Shown here piece by piece: positions 1 through 63,044 of a stretch of 64,000 nucleotides of DNA. This stretch comes from Bacteroidota bacterium (GTDB lineage: Bacteria; Bacteroidota; Bacteroidia; Palsa-965). How positions within the stretch are numbered: the stretch's first letter is position 1; each line of letters begins with the position of its first letter. Both the position numbers and the translations under genes were made by a program. The stretch covers positions 191,063 through 255,062 of the forward strand of contig VBWE01000001.1 of assembly GCA_006218065.1 (NCBI GenBank), given 5' to 3'. Below the pieces are notes generated by a model. That model saw only the letters and a program-made list of their open reading frames with translations. It ran no database searches and was not told the origin of the DNA.

Positions 1-143
1 TGCTGCTTTTCGGAATTTTAGAATTTGAACGGAAGAATTTCGATAATGCCTACATCGCACTGGAAAGCGTGATGCGCAACCGGCCGGGGGACGAAACAGC
101 GCGGACGATTTATAAGCGATATTATATTAAGAAACAGAATTGA
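1..143 (+). CDS. 3' end of an upstream CDS (partial; C-terminal ...ALESVMRNRPGDETARTIYKRYYIKKQN*); hypothetical, possibly TPR-like
   Basis: Open frame 3 runs from the window edge to TGA at 141-143. No start is visible in the window. Confidence 0.3.
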   Translation, partial: LLFGILEFERKNFDNAYIALESVMRNRPGDETARTIYKRYYIKKQN

Positions 144-215
144 TTTGCGATTTTGGATTGCCGATTTGCGATGTTTTATTGCAGATATTCAATCGCAAAT
201 CGGCAATCGCAAATC
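142..215. repeat. Inverted pair of the 30-bp 'U' element: RC copy at 142-171, and a direct copy lacking 'caaaa' at 193-215, separated by a 21-nt loop
   Basis: gatttgcgattttggattgccgatttgcga ... tcgcaaatcggcaatcgcaaatc, read directly from the sequence. Lies downstream of the YD-repeat gene. Confidence 0.7.
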
Positions 216-218
216 AGT

Positions 219-1094
219 TCACCGGTAGTATGTGTATGAAATTGCTTCGTGTTCTTCCCTGTCGCCAGATAGTGCACGATTGCAGTGTTCGCCGGAAAGC
301 AAACCTTGCTCATTGTAAGTAAAACTATACGTGCAGATTTCCCGCCGGCCATGGCGGGGCTGGTACGAAACGGAAACCAACCGGCCTGTTGAATCGTACG
401 CATTCGCCATCGTTTCATGGCGGACATCGTGATCATTCCTGCCCTCTCGACTGTTGTACTGCACACGGTAATAAACCGACCGGACGTTTCCACGCTCATC
501 ATACGTATATGATTCGAACGAAGGTGTGTTGGGCGAATTGTGGCTGATGCGGGTGAGCCGGCCCAGGCTGTCGTATTCTTCTTCCCTTTCCCGCCTCCCG
601 GTTTCAGGAGCATACGTGCTGATCCTTTTTCTTTCTCCGGAATTTGTTTCATACCAGTACAGTATCTTTTTCCCATCCAGCAAACGGGTCTTCACTGCCC
701 TTCCCAGCGAGTCGGTTGAATAGGTGTAGTTGAACACGCGACTTACTTTCCCTTGCGCATCGCTGTATGTTTCTTTGGTAAGCCGCCCTTGTTTATCGTA
801 AACGGAAGAAGCGATGTGACAATTGTTTTGGAGCCTGCAATGTTCCTCGCGGACCAGCAAACCGTTGCTATCCAGTTCATACACGGCCCAGCCTATTGTT
901 TTACCGGAAGAGTCGCTGCTGCTTACGCGGATTGTTTTTACTTTTTTGAGTGACTGGGCAAGCAAACGTGCTTTCAGATCGGAAGGATGGACTTGCGCGT
1001 CAGTGCGAAAAACGGGCAGGAGCAGCAAGCAAAATAGCAAACGGAAGATGTATCGATTTGGGGTCGTCGATTTTCGATGTTTTGATTGATGCAT
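219..1094 (-). CDS. Small secreted YD-repeat (RHS-family repeat) protein, 291 aa
   Basis: N-terminal signal peptide (LLFCLLLLPVF). Repeated YDxxGRL / YTYDERGN / YDSTGRLV YD-repeat motifs. Complete ORF. Confidence 0.6.
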   Translation of the reverse strand: MHQSKHRKSTTPNRYIFRLLFCLLLLPVFRTDAQVHPSDLKARLLAQSLKKVKTIRVSSSDSSGKTIGWAVYELDSNGLLVREEHCRLQNNCHIASSVYDKQGRLTKETYSDAQGKVSRVFNYTYSTDSLGRAVKTRLLDGKKILYWYETNSGERKRISTYAPETGRREREEEYDSLGRLTRISHNSPNTPSFESYTYDERGNVRSVYYRVQYNSREGRNDHDVRHETMANAYDSTGRLVSVSYQPRHGRREICTYSFTYNEQGLLSGEHCNRALSGDREEHEAISYTYYR

Positions 1095-5643: not shown

Positions 5644-5753
5644 GATGACCAAATTACTAATTAATCGATGTACTGATTTGAAAATTCGACAATTGAGAAA
5701 ATTTGAAAATGACCCGCGCGCGTTGATTTGTGCGCATTTTCTCAATTTTCAAA
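5644..5753. repeat. Copy A of a ~110-bp intergenic module (R2) carrying a 10-bp-stem dyad
   Basis: Near-identical to 6498-6610 apart from about 6 substitutions. Begins immediately at the cyclase start codon. Contains ttgagaaaat...attttctcaa and gaaaatg...cattttc inverted repeats. Confidence 0.7.
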
Positions 5754-5794
5754 TTGAGTAATTTTCAAATCGGCTCAATTGTCCAATCGGCAAT

Positions 5795-7740: not shown

Positions 7741-7793
7741 ATTTTTATGTGAACAAAGAAGCTATAAAGTAAGGGCAAGACAGTGTCTTGCCC

Positions 7794-10427
7794 TTACTTT
7801 ATAGCTTCCAGTTCCTTTTTCTTATCGGCGATCATCTTCTCCATCTCTTTCGCTTTCGCCATTTTGTCTTTTAATGCCTGGATGCCGGTAGCTTCTTTGT
7901 TCACGGAAGCAAGTTCATCGATGCGGCGCTGGTATTCTTTCTGTTTTTCAACGTAGCCTTTGCGGACGGTTTCCATGCTGTTGCCAGTGAAGCTGCGGAA
8001 GAACGGTGATTTATATTTCGTGTACATTTTTTCGTACACCGCGAGTCCTTTCGTAACCGTTTCGTCGCTGCAGCGCGTGAGGTACTGCCCGTAAAAACCG
8101 ATATAGCCGATCAGTGTGTACCCGGTGATATCATCGCAGCAGCGCACCATGAAATCGAAATTGGCGTCGCTGCCGGCTTTGCCGTAGAGTTCACAAAGTG
8201 AGACTTTGACCGATTCACTTTCTTCGTTTTCATACTGTGCGGCCACCTTCATGCCTTCTTCGGTGCTCACGGCCGTAATGGCGCCGATGGCCGTACCGAG
8301 TACATAATAAGAACGATCGTTCAAAGCGTTTTTGTAAACCCCGAGCAGATCGGCATCGCCCACTTTATCGGCGAGTGCGGCAAGCGCTTCTGCGCGCACA
8401 TCCGACTTTTCATCCTGCTTTGCCATGGCGATGAGCTTCTCTTTATACGGCTTCACGTCCTTACCCAGTTTGCGGATAGCGATCATGCGCAGGTACCAGA
8501 ATTTGTCGTCGAGCGCTTTCCCGAGCACAACCAAAGCGAGGGAATCTTTCTGTGCTTTTTCCGTTTTTTCGCGCGGGGCCAAACCGTAAATCGCTTCGTA
8601 ACGATCCACGTAAAGCGGTGCGTTGCTATACTGGAAAGCCCATTCTTTTTTCGTTTTGTGATCTTCTTTTTCGCAGAGTATGCGTTTCGCCGCATCCACA
8701 TTCACCAGGTCGGGTTTTGACGAAACGTCGAACGTAAAAGTTTGTTCCCGTTCGTTCATCACGATCCGGTGACGTGTTTTTGTTCCGTTCGCATACACAT
8801 CCACATCCATCGGCAAACGGTAAACGGCAGGCACACCGCCCTTGGAACTTTGTGTCTGGCGAAGCGTCAGTTTTTCCTGTTTTTTCGTTTCGTCGTAGCT
8901 GTACGAAATATCCAGCACGGGATGGCCCGGCGATAAAAACCACTGGTTGAAATACCAGCTGAGGTCTTCCCCGGTTACCTGTTCAAAAGCCATGCGCAGG
9001 TTGTGAATTTCCACCGATTTGTACCGGTTCGATTCCAGGTACAGTTTCAGCGATGCGAAAAACGCTTCGTCGCCCACGTACCAGCGCAGCATACGCAGCA
9101 CCTGCCCGCCTTTGTTGTAGGAATGACTGTCGAACATGTCTTCCTTGTCCTCATAAAAGTAGCGGATCAGCGCTTCTTTTTTCCCCTGCCCGGCTTCGCG
9201 GAAATACCCGTCGCGCGAGTGCTGGCTGTGGTATTCTTCGGCTTCGCTGCCGTGCGCGAATTCTTCCCAGAGGTCTTCCCCGTACGTAGCGAACGATTCG
9301 TTCAGCGGCAGGTTGCTCCACGATTCGCAGGTAACCAGGTCGCCGAACCACTGGTGGAAAAGCTCGTGCGAAATATAATCTTCGTAATTCCCGTCGAGCA
9401 TTTCGCGCTCGGTTTGCTGCAGCTTTTCGCCATGCAGTGTGGCCGTGGTATTTTCCATCGCACCCGAAACGTAATCGCGGGCGCAAATCTGCGCGTACTT
9501 GCCCCAGGGATAATCCACGCCGAGTTTTTTGGAAAAGTATTCCATCATTTCCGGGGTGCGCCCGAAAATGGCGCGGGCATACTGTTCGTATTTTTTCTCG
9601 ACATAGTAACTCACTTCTTTGTCGCGCCACTTGTCTTTGACTACGGCGAAATCGCCCACGGCCATCATCACCAGGTAAGGCGCGTGCGGCAGGTTCATCA
9701 CCCAGCGATCGGTGCGGGTTCCGTCGGTGTTTTTCACCGATTCCGTCATCACGCCATTGGAAAGCGTAACGTATTTATCCTCCACCGTCATGTAAATTTC
9801 CTGTGTCATCCGTTCGTTCGGGCGATCCACGGTGGGGAACCAGGCGGAACTGGCCTGCGTTTCACCCTGCGTCCAGATCTGCATCGGCTTGTTCGGTTCT
9901 TTCCCGTCGGGATTGATGAAGTACAATCCTTTGTCGGAATTGATCGCTGCGCTGCCGCCGGCTTTCAGCTCATCGGGCTTCGCGACGTAATCGATAAAAA
10001 TGGTGTACGACTGGTCGCGTGTGTACTCGCGGCCGAGCTGGATCGAAATCACATCGGCGGCATACTTGTACTCCAGCGCTTTTTTCCCGGAAGCATCTAT
10101 CATGGATACTTCTTTGATCTCCATGCCGCGTGCATCGAGGTCGAGCGTTTTCACCGGGTAGAAATACGGCCGTGCGCTGATCGTCGCTTTTCCGTAGAGG
10201 TAACGCTTCTGCCAGTCGAAAGAAACTTCCAGCTTCGTATGCAGCAAATCGTTCACACGCGTTTCGGCATACTGGTGCACCCGCGGGGCACGCGGCGTAA
10301 TGTCGAGCGTGTCCACGTTGACCTGGACTAAAGTATCATGATTATGGCGGCGGGCTCTTTTTGCCGGGTCACATCCGGCGGTAAAAAAAATACCGGCAGC
10401 AGCCAGCAGGGAAAAAATGCTTCTCAC
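7794..10427 (-). CDS. M1-family zinc aminopeptidase with a C-terminal HEAT/ARM-like repeat region, probable lipoprotein
   Basis: GAMEN (VSGAMENT) and HELFHQWFGDLVT...E zinc motifs. A candidate GTG start at 10427 gives a lipoprotein signal MRSIFSLLAAAGIFFTAGC. The ORF track extends to 10502. Confidence 0.8.
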   Translation of the reverse strand: MRSIFSLLAAAGIFFTAGCDPAKRARRHNHDTLVQVNVDTLDITPRAPRVHQYAETRVNDLLHTKLEVSFDWQKRYLYGKATISARPYFYPVKTLDLDARGMEIKEVSMIDASGKKALEYKYAADVISIQLGREYTRDQSYTIFIDYVAKPDELKAGGSAAINSDKGLYFINPDGKEPNKPMQIWTQGETQASSAWFPTVDRPNERMTQEIYMTVEDKYVTLSNGVMTESVKNTDGTRTDRWVMNLPHAPYLVMMAVGDFAVVKDKWRDKEVSYYVEKKYEQYARAIFGRTPEMMEYFSKKLGVDYPWGKYAQICARDYVSGAMENTTATLHGEKLQQTEREMLDGNYEDYISHELFHQWFGDLVTCESWSNLPLNESFATYGEDLWEEFAHGSEAEEYHSQHSRDGYFREAGQGKKEALIRYFYEDKEDMFDSHSYNKGGQVLRMLRWYVGDEAFFASLKLYLESNRYKSVEIHNLRMAFEQVTGEDLSWYFNQWFLSPGHPVLDISYSYDETKKQEKLTLRQTQSSKGGVPAVYRLPMDVDVYANGTKTRHRIVMNEREQTFTFDVSSKPDLVNVDAAKRILCEKEDHKTKKEWAFQYSNAPLYVDRYEAIYGLAPREKTEKAQKDSLALVVLGKALDDKFWYLRMIAIRKLGKDVKPYKEKLIAMAKQDEKSDVRAEALAALADKVGDADLLGVYKNALNDRSYYVLGTAIGAITAVSTEEGMKVAAQYENEESESVKVSLCELYGKAGSDANFDFMVRCCDDITGYTLIGYIGFYGQYLTRCSDETVTKGLAVYEKMYTKYKSPFFRSFTGNSMETVRKGYVEKQKEYQRRIDELASVNKEATGIQALKDKMAKAKEMEKMIADKKKELEAIK

Positions 10428-25289: not shown

Positions 25290-25709
25290 TTACAGTCCCG
25301 GTTTATTTCCCGGCAAAAACTGCTTCAGCCAGGCTTTGGCCTTTTCCTCGCTTGTAAAAATGCGCGTGGGCCGCGTGGGCTTGTGGAAATTGATGAAGAA
25401 ATTGGCGAGCAGGCGCGTAGAAGTATTTTCAACCAGGATGGCCACCGCTTCGTGCAGCCGTTCGGATTCACGCCCGGCGAGATAATGCCGCGCTTCGTTG
25501 CTCATGGATTTCAGCTTGCGGATATCGGCAAGGACTACGTACTTCTCCCCGACAAAAGTCTGCGCCCCGGTTTTGATGATATCGACCGCATCTTCTTCTT
25601 CCACTTCGGCGTCTTCGAAAAAGACGAGATAGCAATAGTCGTACTCATCTGACCAGAGTTCGGCCAGTCGGGTTGTACGGTAGTTTATTTTCTCTGTGAT
25701 TAGGGTCAT
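25290..25709 (-). CDS. Hypothetical cytoplasmic protein (about 139 aa)
   Basis: ATG at 25707-25709 (MTLITEK). The longer ORF-track version has a hydrophobic, low-complexity N-terminus. Confidence 0.4.
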   Translation of the reverse strand: MTLITEKINYRTTRLAELWSDEYDYCYLVFFEDAEVEEEDAVDIIKTGAQTFVGEKYVVLADIRKLKSMSNEARHYLAGRESERLHEAVAILVENTSTRLLANFFINFHKPTRPTRIFTSEEKAKAWLKQFLPGNKPGL

Positions 25710-25857
25710 GATGATGGATTCGCCAAGACGAACATAGCGATAAAAAATAAGAATTCCAAGACGAAGACTTAGTTTCCTTCGACTAACCGTCAACCCTGCA
25801 AAGTTTAAGAAATTGTTTCGGCTGTGTTTCCAAATCGGTTTAGGAAATGGCGGTTGC

Positions 25858-25992
25858 ACGCCTCACCTCTTTCCTCCCCAAAGGGGAGGATGCTGGAATA
25901 TTTTAAGTGACGTTTCTTTCGTTGGAACGAAAGAAACGTCACTTCCCCGGTAATACCATCCTCTCCGAAGGAGAGGAAAGAGGTGAGGCGAT
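25858..25992. repeat. 135-bp nested palindromic element (structured MITE-like element or ncRNA candidate)
   Basis: Outer 18-bp inverted repeat cgcctcacctctttcctc / gaggaaagaggtgaggcg. Inner hairpins tcctcccc-aaa-ggggagga and tcctctcc-gaa-ggagagga. Central perfect palindrome gtgacgtttctttcgttggaacgaaagaaacgtcac. Confidence 0.6.
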
Positions 25993-34734: not shown

Positions 34735-34933
34735 GCTGAAAGTATCTTTTAAATTCCTCCTGGTTATTTTTACAGGACGGTCGTCGGAATAGTTTTTTGT
34801 ACCAGTTCGGAGTTGGGAGCTTTGAGTTCGGAGTTTTTGCCCGGATAGTTACCGGAATAAAACTCCGAACTCAAGCGAAGCGCACTCCCAACTCCGAACT
34901 GGTAAACCAGCTTAGCTTTTACACATTACACTA

Positions 34934-41555: not shown

Positions 41556-41608
41556 GTGGTTCGGACCTCACCCCAACCCCTCTCCGGCAGAGAGGGGAAT
41601 TGGTTCGG
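41556..41608. repeat. Palindromic element, copy B (cctcaccccaacccctctc-cggcag-agagggg core), 18 nt upstream of the cobA start
   Basis: 53-nt stretch near-identical to 43853-43904. Contains a cccctctc/gagagggg stem. Confidence 0.65.
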
Positions 41609-43852: not shown

Positions 43853-43904
43853 GTGGTTGGGCCTCACCCCAACCCCTCTCCGGCAGAGAGGGGAATTGGT
43901 TCGG
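43853..43904. repeat. Palindromic element, copy A, 10 nt upstream of the sir start
   Basis: gtggttgggcctcaccccaacccctctccggcagagaggggaattggttcgg. Confidence 0.65.
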
Positions 43905-43930
43905 CACATTTTCTTTGTTTACATTCTCTT

Positions 43931-44075: not shown

Positions 44076-44147
44076 AGGCTCCTGGCAGAATTGAACTGCC
44101 GTCTCCGGTTTTGCAGACCAGCGCTTGGACCACTCAGCTATGGAGCC
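44076..44147 (-). tRNA. tRNA-Cys (anticodon GCA)
   Basis: Manual fold. Acceptor GGCTCCA/GGAGCC. T-arm GGCAG-TTCAATT-CTGCC. Anticodon arm CTGGT-CTGCAAA-ACCGG with U33 and A37. 72 nt. CCA is not encoded. Confidence 0.8.
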
Positions 44148-56181: not shown

Positions 56182-57660
56182 TTATTTTCTCCGCAACAGG
56201 ATGGCCCCGATATCATCATAGCGGGCAACCGTATCTACAGGTCCGTGATTCTCCGGCAACTTATCTGTCGGCTGCAGGTAAAGATACCTGAAGCTCGTAT
56301 CCGTAAAATGTTCCTGCACCTCAGGCGGTATCGGTTCGAAATCACCCCGGAAATGTTCCCAGCTGTGAAAACTCATGGAAGGATAATTCAGCCAGGAACA
56401 ATCTAAACGGATTCCTCCCGTTTCTCCGCGTTTTTTTGATTCATCTGTTAATTTCTGCATCACATCCAGGTTATGCTTATCGCAGGCCCATTCGCGGCAA
56501 TAGAGCAGGTCAAATTTGTCGATAAAGTTCCCCAGCAGGAAAAAGGCAGGCAGCAGCACAAGCGACCATTGCAGTACGCGCCGGTTTTTATTTTGCCCGC
56601 TGAATAACGAATGCAGGCCGAAAACAAGCGGCAGTAACAGCGACAGGTGCACAGGAAGCGCCCCGCGGTAATATGGATATAACACTCCCGCAAAATAATG
56701 CAGGCCAAAAATCAGCAGGTAATAAACTGCGAAAACCAGGAGCAGGACATGCGTGTATGTAAACCGTTTGCTGATTACATCGCGCAGCGCGCCGGCCAGC
56801 ACAAGCAACAACAACAATAGTATTCCTGCTTTTAACGCCAGCTTCAGTCCTTCGGGCAAATACGTGTATTGCGGATCATAATACGCGCTGGTGATTGATT
56901 TTTCAATCGTATCGTGCATGAATCCTACTCTTCCTCCAAAATACAGTTCGTTGCGGGTGGCCAGCAGATCGCTGAATATTTTCAGCCGCATTATCCAGAA
57001 AGTCTGCGGCAGGAAAAGCAGCAGGAGCAAAAGCCAGGGACGAGAATTTTTCCATTGCCCGCGCCACCTGCTCAGCCAGATCGTACCGGTGGCAAGCAGT
57101 ATGCCCGCATGCATCGGGATGAAAGTCAGGTTGGACGTTGATGCAAGACCTCCCGCAGTGACCGAAAGCAGAAGAAACAGGATGTTTTTCGTATTCGTTT
57201 TCGCATCCATTGCCGCTGCGAGCGCCCAGCACGCAAGCATAACGAACCCAAGCGAAAGCCCGTACCCGCGCGCCAGGAAGAAAAAATCATTAAGGTACGG
57301 ATCCGCATTTAAGAATATAAATCCTGCAAGGATGAAAACCGCATTCCGCAAACGAAATAAAAGCAGCGTACCGAAAACCAGCCAGAGTATGTGCGCAAAC
57401 AGGCTGTGCAGGCGCAGGTAAAAAAGATTTCCCGTCCCGAAAACCCTGACTTCCTGCCGCAAAAACCAGGTATTCAGCAGGTGGTTGTTAGCGGTCTCCT
57501 CCAGCACTTTGTTTCCCCCGGCTATTTCGATGCTCGATACTTCATCAAAGGTTACCGGGTAATACGCAGCGCGGTATACGGAAATCGAAAACAGGAGCAA
57601 ACCGAAAACCGCTGAAAAAAAAATTATCCATCGTTTGGTTTTCTGATCCTGCTCCATCAT
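56182..57660 (-). CDS. Polytopic membrane protein, probably a GT-C-type glycosyltransferase (ArnT/PMT-like)
   Basis: About 12 TM helices with large loops. The call rests on architecture only. Confidence 0.4.
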   Translation of the reverse strand: MMEQDQKTKRWIIFFSAVFGLLLFSISVYRAAYYPVTFDEVSSIEIAGGNKVLEETANNHLLNTWFLRQEVRVFGTGNLFYLRLHSLFAHILWLVFGTLLLFRLRNAVFILAGFIFLNADPYLNDFFFLARGYGLSLGFVMLACWALAAAMDAKTNTKNILFLLLSVTAGGLASTSNLTFIPMHAGILLATGTIWLSRWRGQWKNSRPWLLLLLLFLPQTFWIMRLKIFSDLLATRNELYFGGRVGFMHDTIEKSITSAYYDPQYTYLPEGLKLALKAGILLLLLLVLAGALRDVISKRFTYTHVLLLVFAVYYLLIFGLHYFAGVLYPYYRGALPVHLSLLLPLVFGLHSLFSGQNKNRRVLQWSLVLLPAFFLLGNFIDKFDLLYCREWACDKHNLDVMQKLTDESKKRGETGGIRLDCSWLNYPSMSFHSWEHFRGDFEPIPPEVQEHFTDTSFRYLYLQPTDKLPENHGPVDTVARYDDIGAILLRRK

Positions 57661-57792
57661 TATTCCTGCCGGGTTATTTACTGACTACGAATATATCAGG
57701 AAGAACGTAAACTACCGCAGGCCGGAAACCAGGGTCGGCGCGGCATGGTCGAGTGCGGGGTCGTATAAGCAGATTATTCCGGGGAGTCAGTA

Positions 57793-58045
57793 GTCCGGGG
57801 ACTCACCCCCCGGCCCCCTCTCTCCGACGTTGTATGTTTTGTATAAACGAAAGTCGGGGTTGCGACAACGTCGCAAAGAGGGGGAGCCACAACTTATAGT
57901 AAATGGAACTACTGTAATACCTGCGTCAAAGACGCAGGTATTACAGTTTTACGACACCCCCTCCTTTGCGGCTTTGTTTTAAAAGAGCTTTTCTTGTAAA
58001 ACAGAACAAAGCCGGAGAGAGGGGGCCGGGGGGTGAGTCCCCGGA
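57793..58045. mobile_element. 253-bp MITE-like element with perfect 33-bp terminal inverted repeats
   Basis: Left TIR tccggggactcaccccccggccccctctctccg (57793-57825). The right end, cggagagagggggccggggggtgagtccccgga (58013-58045), is its exact reverse complement. Internal hairpins include gtaatacctgcgtcaaagacgcaggtattac. Confidence 0.65.
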
Positions 58046-58065
58046 AAACTATCTATTTTTACCTC

Positions 58066-60360
58066 ATGCCGCGATTTGCCTGGTTTCTGTTTTTCTCCTT
58101 TTTACCCCCACTGCTCGGGGCGCAGCAGAATTTTACCATCAGCGGAACTGTTTTGGATTCCACGAACGGGGAATCGGTGATCGGCGGCGTGGTTTACGTG
58201 AAGGGAACGTCGAAAGGAGTGCAGACAAACGTGTACGGCTTTTATTCGCTCACGCTGGCCGAAGGCAGTTATGATATTATCGTGAATTATGTCACCTACC
58301 GTTCACGTACCCTGCACGTCGATCTGAAAAGTAACGTTACGCTGAACATCCGCCTGGCCCCGGAAGGAACAGCGATCGATGAAGTCGTGATTACTGCGGA
58401 CAAGGACAAAGAGAAAGAACAACTGCGTTCCACACAAATGAGCGCGATCAATATCCCGATCGACCAGATCAAACATATTCCCACCATCGGCGGCGAAACC
58501 GACGTGATCAAAGTGATGCAGCTGATGCCGGGAGTAAAACGCGGAGGTGAAGGTCAGAATACGATGCTCGTGCGCGGCGGTTCGGGAGACGATAACCTGA
58601 TCCTGCTCGATGAAGCGGTAGTGTACAACGTCTCGCATCTTTTCGGTTTTTTCTCCGTCTTCAATAACGATGCGCTGAAAGACGTAACGCTGATCAAAGG
58701 CGGTTTTCCTTCGCAATACGGCGGACGGCTTTCGAGCGTGATGGATATCCGCATGAAGGACGGCGATATGCAGAAATATCACGTGGACGGCGGAATCGGT
58801 TTGCTGTCGTCGCATTTAACCGTGCAGGGCCCGATCAAAAAAGATACCTGTTCGTTTATTCTTTCCGGCCGCCGTTCATATATCGACCAGCTTTTCCGGC
58901 TCGTGTATAAAGAAGACCTGCTTCCGTATTATTTCTACGATGCGACGCTGAAAGTGAATTACATTCTTTCCGACAAGAACCGCCTTTTCCTGAGCACATA
59001 CTACGGCGATGATGTGCTTCGTCCCCCGAAATCCGACAGCGCACTTTTCGACGGCGGTTTCCGGCTCGGGAATTTCACCACCACGCTTCGCTGGAACCAC
59101 GTGTATAATTCGAAACTGTTTTCGAATCTTTCGTTCATCCACACGCGTTTCCGTTACGACGTGGAAGCCAGCGTGCCGGGAAATTCTTTTCTCGCCAAAT
59201 CGCGCATTGCGGATTACGGCGTGAAGCTCGATTACAGCTATTACAAAAACCCGGAAAACCTGGTTCGTTACGGCGGACTGGTTACCCTGCACGGATTCCG
59301 CCCGAACGTGGTGAACACTGCCGGCGTTATTTCCGACGTAATCCGTTCGCGCGAAGGCGCGCTCAAGTCGAACGTCGAAGCCGGTTTATATATCCAGCAC
59401 GAATGGGAAATCCACCCGCTGCTGAAACTCGGCTACGGTTTCCGCGAATCGTTTCTTATCGATTCCGATACGTTTTACACTTCGCCTGAACCGCGCGCCG
59501 CGCTCACGTATAATTTCCACGAAAAACAATCGCTTAAACTGAGCTACGCGCGCATGACGCAATACGTACATCTCGTATCGAGTTCGGCCGTTGCGCTGCC
59601 TACCGATCTCTGGTACCCGGTGACCAAAAATGTAAAACCGCTGTATTCCGACCAGGTGGCGGCAGGTTACAATTACAATTTTGAAAAACTGAAAACGCTC
59701 GCCTCGTTCGAAGTGTATTACAAGCACATGAAAAACCTGATCGAATACCGGGAAGGCGCCGTACTGCTGCTGAACGACAATTACGAAAACGAACTGGTGA
59801 GCGGCAACGGCGATTCTTACGGATGCGAATTGTTTGCGCAGCGTTCTTCAGGCCGTTTTACCGGCTGGATCGGGTACACGCTTTCGTGGACCACGCGTAA
59901 GTTCGATGCGCTCAACGGCGGAAAACGGTACTACGCGAAATTCGACCGGCGTCATGACGTGTCCGTGGTCGGCGCGTATGAAATCACGAAACGCTTTCTG
60001 ATCTCCGCCGTCTGGGTATATTCCACCGGCCAGCGGTTCACGCCGGTGATCGGGTATTACCTGATGCCGAATTCTTCGCTGACCGACGTGGATATCCTGC
60101 CGATATACGGCGACCGCAACAGTACCGAACTTCCGCCCGCGCACCGCCTCGACCTCAGCCTCGTGCTGAAATCGCGCGAGAAAGAAAAACGCAAATGGAT
60201 GAAATGGGAAAGTGAATGGAGCGCGGGTGCGTATAACGTTTATAACCGCGCACAACCGTATCGCATCGAAGTAGTAGACAACGGGCAGGGCGGGCTGAAA
60301 TACGTAGCCAAAGGTTTATTCGGCATGATTCCTTTCATCGCATATAATTTCCGGTTCTGA
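58066..60360 (+). CDS. TonB-dependent outer-membrane receptor with an N-terminal carboxypeptidase-regulatory-like domain
   Basis: Signal peptide. CarbopepD_reg-like region (ISGTVLDSTNGESVIGGVVYV). Plug and barrel. Terminal F (…YNFRF). Confidence 0.8.
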   Translation: MPRFAWFLFFSFLPPLLGAQQNFTISGTVLDSTNGESVIGGVVYVKGTSKGVQTNVYGFYSLTLAEGSYDIIVNYVTYRSRTLHVDLKSNVTLNIRLAPEGTAIDEVVITADKDKEKEQLRSTQMSAINIPIDQIKHIPTIGGETDVIKVMQLMPGVKRGGEGQNTMLVRGGSGDDNLILLDEAVVYNVSHLFGFFSVFNNDALKDVTLIKGGFPSQYGGRLSSVMDIRMKDGDMQKYHVDGGIGLLSSHLTVQGPIKKDTCSFILSGRRSYIDQLFRLVYKEDLLPYYFYDATLKVNYILSDKNRLFLSTYYGDDVLRPPKSDSALFDGGFRLGNFTTTLRWNHVYNSKLFSNLSFIHTRFRYDVEASVPGNSFLAKSRIADYGVKLDYSYYKNPENLVRYGGLVTLHGFRPNVVNTAGVISDVIRSREGALKSNVEAGLYIQHEWEIHPLLKLGYGFRESFLIDSDTFYTSPEPRAALTYNFHEKQSLKLSYARMTQYVHLVSSSAVALPTDLWYPVTKNVKPLYSDQVAAGYNYNFEKLKTLASFEVYYKHMKNLIEYREGAVLLLNDNYENELVSGNGDSYGCELFAQRSSGRFTGWIGYTLSWTTRKFDALNGGKRYYAKFDRRHDVSVVGAYEITKRFLISAVWVYSTGQRFTPVIGYYLMPNSSLTDVDILPIYGDRNSTELPPAHRLDLSLVLKSREKEKRKWMKWESEWSAGAYNVYNRAQPYRIEVVDNGQGGLKYVAKGLFGMIPFIAYNFRF

Positions 60361-62999: not shown

Positions 63000-63044
63000 A
63001 GCAGCAGCGGCAGTCGGCAGCAGCAGGCGACTGCCGCTGCTGCT
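63000..63044 (+). terminator. Stem-loop terminator candidate after the SIMPL gene
   Basis: agcagcagcggcagtcg-gcagcagcag-cgactgccgctgctgct, a perfect 17-bp stem followed by gaatttatt. Confidence 0.45.

What the first reader, a model, noticed from the sequence alone, without database searches (positions are those of the whole stretch)
57793..58045. MITE with perfect 33-bp TIRs inserted immediately upstream of a TonB-dependent receptor gene
The left and right 33-mers are exact reverse complements, so it is a textbook non-autonomous element, 253 bp long. The interior is densely hairpinned, including gtaatacctgcgtcaaagacgcaggtattac and gttgcgacaacgtcgcaa. The right TIR ends 20 bp before the receptor ATG at 58066. 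The element therefore probably supplies or disrupts the promoter of the TonB receptor/DUF4249 pair. The TIRs share cccctctc with the cobA and sir palindromes, which links them as one family.
Basis: seen in the sequence. Interest (0 to 1): 0.55.

Follow-up and report, generated by a model that had tools for sequence, protein, structure and literature searches.

The report
ORF-less DUF559-associated palindromic repeat element
The 252-bp inverted-repeat insert upstream of the TonB receptor gene is real and is a gene-less copy of a repeat family found in more than a dozen bacterial phyla, whose full-length copies carry a small Vsr-like (DUF559) endonuclease gene rather than a known transposase.

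Summary

It is not a textbook MITE. Each "TIR" is a modular unit: a head, ACTCACCCCCCGG, followed by a CCCCCTCTC...GAGAGGGGG hairpin. A 22-mer from it occurs exactly in more than 106 stretches of genomes from at least 13 phyla.

The only gene that recurs next to the motif is DUF559, a Vsr-like PD-(D/E)XK endonuclease. In full-length copies (444-655 bp) this gene sits between the two inverted units. ORF-less doublets are 73-210 bp.

In 80 DUF559 loci chosen by protein similarity alone, units are about 200-fold enriched next to the gene.

Orthologous receptor loci (83-90% identity) lack the insert. One relative carries the same subfamily at three other sites.

No target-site duplication, transposase, RAYT or Rfam match was found.

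Best reading: a non-autonomous member of an apparently undescribed, REPIN-like family that uses a DUF559 nuclease. The mobilisation mechanism and any effect on the receptor promoter are inferred, not shown.

The parts
57794..58045 (.). Whole ORF-less doublet, 252 bp
   Evidence: Perfect 33-bp inverted repeat at its ends. Folding z-scores -14.5 (RNA) and -15.3 (DNA). Absent from orthologous loci L108-L111.
57794..57800 (+). Subfamily-specific terminal extension TCCGGGG. Its inverse, CCCCGGA, is at 58039-58045.
   Evidence: The same ...GGGGTGAGCCCCGGA terminus is found on an element at a different locus in relative L109, 9095-9175. It is therefore part of the element, not of the target site.
57801..57813 (+). 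Left head ACTCACCCCCCGG, the cross-phylum conserved core
   Evidence: With the first 9 nt of hairpin 1 it forms the 22-mer found exactly in more than 106 genome stretches from at least 13 phyla.
57814..57884 (+). Hairpin 1: arms 57814-57833 / 57865-57884 with a 31-nt loop
   Evidence: I3, 90% complementary. The arms are homologous to the long arms of the L109 elements.
57911..57947 (.). Central perfect 17-bp hairpin with a 3-nt loop. It scores as terminator-like on the minus strand.
   Evidence: (I4). The interior has no match in any fetched locus.
57958..58025 (-). Hairpin 2: arms 57958-57978 / 58005-58025, with an inner 12-bp hairpin at 57975-58003
   Evidence: I5, 81% complementary; I9.
58026..58038 (-). 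Right head CCGGGGGGTGAGT, the inverse of the left head
57777..57789 (+). Partial extra copy of the left terminus (TTCCGGGGAGTCA), lying outside the element
   Evidence: D2, 87% to 57791-57805; I8, 92% complementary to 58034-58046. There is no counterpart on the right flank, so it is not a target-site duplication.
58046..58065 (+). Start-proximal segment of the receptor gene, left intact by the insert
   Evidence: aaaactatctatttttacctcATG aligns with aaactgtcttatttttgcctgATG in L108.
25862..25987 (.). Second doublet of the same architecture, with variant head CTCACCTC and a central 19-bp hairpin at 25905-25944
41567..41597 (+). Single unit CTCACCCCAACCCCTCTCCGGCAGAGAGGGG, 29 nt upstream of a TP_methylase gene on the minus strand
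43863..43893 (+). Identical single unit, 20 nt upstream of the NIR_SIR reductase gene on the minus strand

Best explanation
What it is. The element is a non-autonomous, gene-less member of a widespread family of palindromic repeat elements. The family's building block is a unit made of a head, (A)CTCAC(C)n, a 2-5 nt linker, and a CCCCCTCTC-loop-GAGAGGGGG hairpin. Two units in inverted orientation bracket a variable middle.

Full-length copies. In the 444-655 bp copies the middle is a gene of about 120 aa for a DUF559 (Vsr-like PD-(D/E)XK) endonuclease. The window copy has only a 73-nt spacer with a 17-bp hairpin there.

What is shown:
- the architecture of the units and doublets;
- the two-way association between the units and DUF559 genes;
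- the cross-phylum distribution;
- the absence of the insert from orthologous sites, and the presence of the same subfamily at other sites in a relative.

What is inferred about mobilisation. The DUF559 nuclease recognises the conserved head-plus-hairpin, probably when it is extruded or single-stranded. It nicks or cuts there. Host repair or replication then copies the element, so ORF-less doublets like this one are propagated in trans.

What is inferred about the local effect. The insert sits at position -20 of the receptor gene. Any promoter upstream of the conserved start-proximal 20 nt is therefore pushed 252 bp away, or must read through a very stable stem. The receptor/DUF4249 operon is likely to be expressed differently from its relatives, in an unknown direction.
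For: Motif distribution and architecture:
The genomes are Chloroflexota, Bacteroidota, Balneolaceae/Rhodohalobacter, Ignavibacteriota, Calditrichota, KSB1, Latescibacterota, Planctomycetota, Myxococcota, Pseudomonadota, Spirochaetota, Armatimonadota, Cyanobacteriota and Bacillota.
- the motif is always followed by a hairpin and often by an inverse unit.
- 72% of 264 distinct hairpins extend the conserved core by at least 2 further Watson-Crick pairs, using all four pair types.

Association with DUF559:
- the only recurrent neighbour is DUF559 (17 of 106 loci; Pfam E = 5e-28).
- the gene lies between the left unit and the right unit (L024, L093, L021, L039) or between complete doublets.
- in 80 DUF559 loci chosen by protein alone, there are 110 units within 350 nt upstream to 400 nt downstream of the gene (2.09 per kb) against 1 elsewhere (0.010 per kb). 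At least 58 of the 80 loci are flanked.
- doublet lengths are bimodal, 73-210 bp and 444-655 bp.
- the DUF559 profile matches PDB 3HRL (E = 1e-23) and the homing endonuclease I-Bth0305I, 3R3P (E = 2e-7).
- Pfam on 150 neighbouring ORFs gives DUF559 in 12 of them, and neither a Y1 nor a DDE transposase among the 25 most frequent families listed.

Presence and absence in this lineage:
- the orthologous loci lack the insert.
- the same subfamily sits at three other sites in L109.
- 5 units detected in the 64-kb window by the scan, and the right-hand unit of the target element seen by eye makes 6, against about 0.03 in shuffles.
Against: - No DUF559 gene lies in the 64-kb window or in the relatives' 10-kb loci. 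A trans-acting partner in this genome is therefore assumed, not seen.
- The interior of this copy (57827-58012) has no second copy in anything fetched. Transposition of this exact 252-bp unit is not demonstrated.
- The left flank is a synteny breakpoint, so there is no clean empty site.
- A lone PD-(D/E)XK nuclease has no known strand-transfer activity, so the copying step has no precedent.
- Some copy-number variation looks like tandem duplication rather than insertion.
- The association with DUF559 does not show who mobilises whom.
Confidence: 0.6

Rival explanations
1. The units are the target, not the ends. ORF-less doublets and simple palindromes would be pre-existing, possibly host-useful, structures. 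The DUF559 gene would be a free-standing homing-endonuclease gene that invades them by cleavage and gene conversion, using the conserved unit arms as homology. On this reading the window copy is an uninvaded target.
For: DUF559 is homologous to the homing endonuclease I-Bth0305I. The gene is found both inside doublets and between complete doublets. No target-site duplication is seen. The conserved arms give about 22-45 bp of homology on each side.
Against: - It does not explain how ORF-less doublets reach new, non-orthologous sites in close relatives.
- It does not explain why the same core recurs across at least 13 phyla.
- The middle of ORF-less doublets, which is the supposed insertion point, is not conserved in sequence or length, which is unusual for a homing site.
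Confidence: 0.2
2. A host-selected structural element, such as a bidirectional terminator, insulator or mRNA-stabilising stem-loop (like REP/BIME functions), kept between the divergent genes. The association with DUF559 would be incidental to its function here.
For: The central hairpin scores as terminator-like. In other genomes many units lie 1-13 nt after stop codons. The stems are kept by compensatory changes.
Against: Here the element lies between two divergent gene starts, where a terminator has no obvious role. It is absent from all four orthologous loci. Units face both starts and stops, 44 against 62.
Confidence: 0.1
3. A classical MITE: a deletion derivative of a DDE-transposase insertion sequence with the same terminal inverted repeats, moved by cut-and-paste.
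For: Perfect 33-bp inverted ends, small size and no ORF.
Against: There is no target-site duplication. No DDE or other transposase appears among the recurrent families (two or more members) of the 150 ORFs within 500 nt of the motif, nor among recurrent clusters. The ends are composite REP-like units shared across phyla.
Confidence: 0.05
4. A REPIN (doublet of REP sequences) mobilised by a RAYT, the IS200/IS605-like Y1 transposase.
For: The layout is the same: an unpaired tag plus a hairpin, inverted doublets, and a small gene flanked by the repeats.
Against: No Y1_Tnp family appears among the recurrent neighbouring families listed. The tag is CTCAC(C)n, not GTAG or CGTC (PMC3733652). REP sequences are lineage-specific, whereas this core is identical across phyla.
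Confidence: 0.03
5. A cis-regulatory leader RNA or riboswitch of the TonB receptor operon.
For: The position is immediately 5' of the gene and the predicted fold is very strong.
Against: It is not present at this position in orthologues. There is no Rfam match. The same core lies next to unrelated genes in many phyla, in both orientations and after stop codons.
Confidence: 0.02

Closest known systems
REP / REPIN elements and their RAYT genes (BIMEs in E. coli)
   Same: Short units made of an unpaired tag plus a hairpin. Inverted doublets that fold into long hairpins. Many ORF-less copies per genome in intergenic DNA. A small nuclease-type gene flanked by the repeats. No target-site duplication.
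   Different: The partner gene is a DUF559 Vsr-like PD-(D/E)XK endonuclease, not an HUH Y1 transposase. The tag is CTCAC(C)n rather than GTAG or CGTC. The core sequence is identical across at least 13 phyla. The gene can sit inside a doublet.
Bacterial MITEs (for example Correia elements, Nezha, RUP)
   Same: Small, ORF-less, with inverted ends, intergenic, and able to land next to promoters.
   Different: No target-site duplication and no transposase-encoding parent. The ends are modular hairpin units rather than simple terminal inverted repeats.
Vsr-like (EDxHD) homing endonuclease genes such as I-Bth0305I
   Same: The nuclease of the full-length elements is homologous to it (3R3P, E = 2e-7). 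A small selfish nuclease gene is embedded in a structured host sequence.
   Different: It is not in a group I intron or an intein. The host sequence is itself a dispersed multi-copy repeat. Cleavage activity is untested.
PATEs and IS200/IS605 ends
   Same: Function depends on subterminal hairpins rather than on target duplication. Non-autonomous palindromic derivatives exist.
   Different: No TnpA or TnpB is nearby. The two ends are inverted copies of one unit.

Membership tests
Classical MITE (derivative of a transposase-encoding IS) | Terminal inverted repeats | tested here: met
   33-bp perfect inverted repeat at 57794-57826 / 58013-58045.
Classical MITE (derivative of a transposase-encoding IS) | Small size and no coding capacity | tested here: met
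   252 bp. The only ORF inside is a 50-aa TTG ORF.
Classical MITE (derivative of a transposase-encoding IS) | Target-site duplication flanking the element | tested here: not met
   The flanks are ...gtcagtag and aaaactat.... The upstream ccggggagtca is a partial copy of the terminus. 62 of 73 doublets elsewhere have no direct repeat.
Classical MITE (derivative of a transposase-encoding IS) | Autonomous partner with the same ends that encodes a transposase | tested here: not met
   Full-length elements with these ends encode DUF559. No DDE or other transposase family appears among the 25 most frequent families of the 150 neighbouring ORFs.
Classical MITE (derivative of a transposase-encoding IS) | Multiple near-identical copies in the same genome | tested here: inconclusive
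   There are 6 units in the 64-kb window (5 by the scan, plus the right-hand unit of the target element seen by eye), but no second copy of this interior in anything fetched.
REP/REPIN-RAYT | Unit = unpaired conserved tag plus a short hairpin; doublets in inverted orientation | tested here: met
   The layout is the same but the tag sequence differs (CTCAC(C)n against GTAG/CGTC; PMC3733652).
REP/REPIN-RAYT | Association with a RAYT (Y1_Tnp) gene flanked by the repeats | tested here: not met
   Pfam scan of 150 ORFs within 500 nt of the motif: DUF559 in 12; no Y1_Tnp among the 25 most frequent families listed. BLAST clustering gave no other recurrent family.
REP/REPIN-RAYT | Lineage-specific repeat sequence | tested here: not met
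   An identical 22-mer is found in at least 13 phyla.
   57801-57884 and 57958-58038, compared.
   No DUF559 in the window by tblastn. This copy is therefore classed as the ORF-less form, like the 73-210 bp doublets.
   Absent upstream of the receptor in L108-L111. The same subfamily is present at three other sites in L109.
Vsr-like homing endonuclease gene | Nuclease homologous to Vsr / I-Bth0305I | tested here: met
   The profile of 14 motif-adjacent DUF559 proteins hits 3HRL (E = 1.4e-23) and 3R3P (E = 2e-7). This applies to the full-length relatives, not to the window copy.
Vsr-like homing endonuclease gene | Cleaves the empty allele and is copied in by repair | not testable with these tools
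   This needs biochemistry or genetic crosses.
Cis-regulatory leader RNA | Conserved at the same position upstream of orthologous genes, with a known RNA family match | tested here: not met
   Absent in the orthologues. No Rfam hit. No bias towards gene starts.

The most novel reading that the evidence does not exclude
DUF559 Vsr-like endonucleases would be the mobilising or maintaining enzymes of a cross-phylum family of REPIN-like replicators. That would be a second, independent REP/RAYT-type system built on a PD-(D/E)XK nuclease instead of an HUH transposase. Its recognition motif would be conserved almost base for base from Chloroflexota to Bacteroidota, Planctomycetota and Bacillota. It would also give a function to a large domain of unknown function.
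Probability: 0.4. Interest if true: 0.75.

Novelty: new variant of a known kind. Interest (0 to 1): 0.6.

Why it matters
Small palindromic repeats such as REPs, REPINs and MITEs shape bacterial intergenic DNA. Only a few have a known partner enzyme.

Here one conserved DNA motif links thousands of intergenic hairpins in very distant phyla to DUF559, a common but uncharacterised nuclease family. That gives a directly testable hypothesis for what DUF559 does, and for how a nuclease without strand-transfer chemistry could propagate DNA.

It also matters for annotation. These units generate spurious ORFs (of the ...PPGPLSLQERG... type), interfere with MAG assembly, and can sit at -20 of genes such as this TonB receptor, where they may change expression.

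I found no description of this association in the searchable literature. That library is incomplete, so the novelty claim is provisional.

Tried and rejected
- Rfam, on the whole window, on the region at E up to 10, and on 12 full-length loci, gave only a tRNA and chance microRNA hits.
- The plasmid collection had no match, and viral contigs had a single hit with no DUF559 nearby. Phage or plasmid carriage is therefore not indicated.
- The exact-protein look-up of the receptor found nothing, so the source genome could not be retrieved.
- A MAFFT alignment of 47 units (A1) left the 3' arms out of register. I did not build a covariance model and used a regular-expression scan with shuffles instead.
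- Mismatch-type asymmetry in the hairpins (48 C.A against 17 T.G) matches what base composition plus my selection of the head-proximal arm would produce. It says nothing about RNA versus DNA or about strand.
- The idea that units prefer gene starts (3 of 3 scorable in the window) did not hold in other genomes: 44 start-proximal against 62 stop-proximal.
- The search for filled/empty pairs among the fetched loci gave only one clear length difference (L039 against L139). It looks like tandem duplication of a 65-nt unit, not insertion.
- I first read the conserved AT-rich box before the ATG as a Bacteroidota -7 promoter element. It lies only 4 nt from the ATG, too close for that, so I treat it merely as a conserved start-proximal segment.
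- Other recurrent neighbour clusters are ordinary genes, for example a glycine-cleavage-H-like protein and large repeat proteins.

Full report
**Observation.** The sequence contains a perfect 33-bp inverted repeat at 57794-57826 / 58013-58045. The repeat continues imperfectly to 45 nt.

Inside it lie three hairpins:
- hairpin 1, arms 57814-57833 / 57865-57884;
- a perfect 17-bp central hairpin at 57911-57947;
- hairpin 2, arms 57958-57978 / 58005-58025.

Predicted folding is extreme for either nucleic acid: RNA -164.6 kcal/mol, z = -14.5, and DNA z = -15.3.

The element lies in a 405-bp divergent intergenic region. On one side is a 492-aa gene on the minus strand (start at 57660, no Pfam match). 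On the other is a CarbopepD_reg_2/Plug TonB-dependent receptor (ATG at 58066) followed by a DUF4249 gene.

**Anatomy.** The "TIR" is composite. From the outside in it consists of:
- a 7-nt extension, TCCGGGG;
- a head, ACTCACCCCCCGG;
- the 5' arm of a hairpin that begins CCCCCTCTC.

The right end is the mirror image. The element is therefore two inverted units (head plus hairpin) around a 73-nt middle that holds the central hairpin.

The window contains more units of this design:
- a second doublet at 25862-25987 with its own central hairpin;
- two identical single units at 41567 and 43863, just upstream of a TP_methylase (cobA-like) gene and a NIR_SIR reductase gene.

The scan found five units in the window, and the right-hand unit of the target element, seen by eye, makes six. 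Markov shuffles of the window gave about 0.03.

**The core is shared across phyla.** By chance about 0.07 would be expected.

The genomes belong to Chloroflexota, several orders of Bacteroidota, Balneolaceae/Rhodohalobacter, Ignavibacteriota, Calditrichota, KSB1, Latescibacterota, Planctomycetota, Myxococcota, Pseudomonadota, Spirochaetota, Armatimonadota, Cyanobacteriota (Sericytochromatia) and Bacillota. They include one cultured isolate and complete long-read chromosomes.

In 94 of the matches the motif is followed by a complete hairpin. Often a second hairpin and the inverse head, GGGGG(G)TGAGT, follow at 70-600 bp. Beyond the conserved stem core, 72% of 264 distinct hairpins add two or more further Watson-Crick pairs using all four pair types. 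Hairpin formation itself is therefore selected. Several genomes carry many copies, sometimes inside larger ORF-less repeats.

**The partner gene.** All-against-all comparison of ORFs in the 106 loci gave a single recurrent neighbour, a protein of about 120-140 aa in 17 loci. It is Pfam DUF559 (PF04480, E = 5e-28; NCBIfam "DUF559 domain-containing protein").

In L024, L093, L021 and L039 the gene lies exactly between a left unit and a right unit. This is the architecture of the window element with a gene in place of the spacer. In other loci the gene lies between complete ORF-less doublets.

A Pfam scan of 150 ORFs within 500 nt of the motif put DUF559 first (12 members). No Y1 (RAYT) or DDE transposase family appeared among the 25 most frequent families listed.

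The reverse test used 80 metagenomic loci chosen only by similarity to DUF559:
- 110 units lay within 350 nt upstream to 400 nt downstream of the gene (2.09 per kb), against 1 elsewhere in the same loci (0.010 per kb);
- at least 58 of the 80 genes are flanked by units;
- many of the apparent negatives carry variant units that my pattern missed.

Doublet lengths are bimodal: 73-210 bp without an ORF and 444-655 bp with DUF559. A profile of these proteins matches PDB 3HRL (E = 1e-23) and 3R3P, the Vsr-like homing endonuclease I-Bth0305I (E = 2e-7). The D...ExD...H catalytic pattern is invariant.

**Insertion rather than a conserved leader.** The receptor's closest homologues (90, 85 and 83% identity) were traced to their contigs. 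Their upstream intergenic regions are 88-199 bp and contain no unit.

Similarity to the 90% relative resumes immediately after the element's right end: aaactgtcttatttttgcctgATG against aaaactatctatttttacctcATG. The insert therefore abuts a conserved start-proximal segment.

The left neighbour gene is missing from all the relatives' loci. The element thus sits at a synteny breakpoint, and a clean empty site is not available.

The 85% relative (L109) carries three elements of the same lineage-specific subfamily at sites where the window has none. They share the same long hairpin arms (...TTTGCGACGCGGC / GCCGCGTCGCAAAGAGGGG) and the same ...GGGGTGAGCCCCGGA terminus. This shows two things. The TCCGGGG/CCCCGGA extension belongs to the element. 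And elements of this subfamily are gained and lost within the lineage.

No target-site duplication flanks this copy. In 62 of 73 other doublets there is none either, and the inverted repeat usually runs only 1-3 nt beyond CTCAC. The ccggggagtca upstream of the left end is a partial extra copy of the terminus.

**Interpretation.** The element is best described as the ORF-less form of a DUF559-associated palindromic element. Its layout and genomic behaviour resemble a REPIN with its RAYT, but with a different tag, a different enzyme class and a cross-phylum core.

The DNA core stays nearly invariant while the adjacent proteins are only 37-48% identical. This points to sequence-specific recognition of the head-plus-hairpin by the nuclease, together with horizontal spread.

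I infer, but have not shown, that the nuclease nicks or cuts at the units and that repair or replication copies the element, with ORF-less doublets riding in trans. The main alternative is that the doublets are targets into which the DUF559 gene homes. The data do not separate these two readings.

I found no orientation preference towards gene starts in other genomes: 44 start-proximal against 62 stop-proximal, with many units 1-13 nt after a stop codon. A general promoter or leader role is therefore unlikely.

Locally, the insert separates the receptor's conserved start-proximal 20 nt from everything upstream. It would place a stem of at least 33 bp in any read-through transcript. An effect on expression is plausible but untested.

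**Known or new.** Nothing in Rfam matches. Full-text searches for the sequence strings, DUF559, COG2852/PF04480, Vsr-like nucleases and REP surveys found no description of this association. The published REP super-families are GTAG- or CGTC-tagged.

I therefore rate the element as a new variant of a known kind (REP/REPIN/MITE-like non-autonomous repeats). The literature library is incomplete, which limits this claim.

**Limits.**
- The source genome beyond 64 kb could not be examined.
- No DUF559 gene lies in the window or in the relatives' loci.
- No second copy of this element's interior was found.
- Whether the functional form is RNA or single-stranded DNA could not be resolved.

Noticed in passing
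window 25859-25990: A second doublet with the same plan as the target: variant head CTCACCTC, CCTCCCC/GGGGAGG hairpins, and a central perfect 19-bp hairpin at 25905-25944. It lies beside a DUF7793 gene (25290-25859, minus strand).
   Followed up: partly
window 41565-41605 and 43861-43905: Two near-identical stretches of about 60 nt, each containing a single unit. They lie 29 and 20 nt upstream of the start codons of a TP_methylase (cobA-like) gene and a NIR_SIR reductase. The reductase also has a C-terminal HEPN match. A tRNA gene lies just upstream at 44076-44147.
   Followed up: partly
window 137-220, 1880-2047, 5675-5771: A different, AT-rich repeat family (GATTTGCGATTTTGGATTGCCGATT and relatives), arranged as inverted pairs with arms of 24-37 nt.
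   Followed up: no
window 34800-34904: Nested inverted repeats: an outer perfect 20-bp pair and an inner 23-bp pair built on TTCGGAGTT motifs. Unrelated in sequence to the target family.
   Followed up: no
window 7758-7808 and 63000-63044: A perfect 25-bp palindrome, and a 22-bp GC-rich palindrome downstream of the SIMPL gene. At the position matching the second one, relative L109 instead carries a unit of the target subfamily (L109 9095-9175).
   Followed up: partly
L039 500-800 versus L139 1040-1210: The flanks are 98-100% identical, but L039 has three hairpin+GGGGGGTGAG units in tandem where L139 has one. The period is 65 nt and each unit is followed by TTCATAA. They lie between the same DUF559 gene and a polA-like start. 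This looks like tandem duplication of a unit.
   Followed up: partly
L016, L055, L059, L060, L062, L064, L084, L098, L100, L101 (Chromatiales MAG CAYJMN01): The 22-mer lies inside an ORF-less repeat of about 300 bp that is present on at least ten contigs of one genome. The unit can therefore be part of larger lineage-specific repeats.
   Followed up: partly
doublets listed: About 15 of 58 ORF-less doublets pair a CTCAC head with a CTCAT head. A head-to-head stem would then hold a T.G or C.A opposition at one fixed position. This is intriguing because the partner enzyme family (Vsr) acts on T.G mismatches.
   Followed up: no
window 56182-57660 (minus strand): A 492-aa predicted membrane protein with no Pfam or NCBIfam match. 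It is absent from the loci of all four relatives and lies between the msrA-like gene and the receptor, so the element sits at a rearrangement junction.
   Followed up: partly
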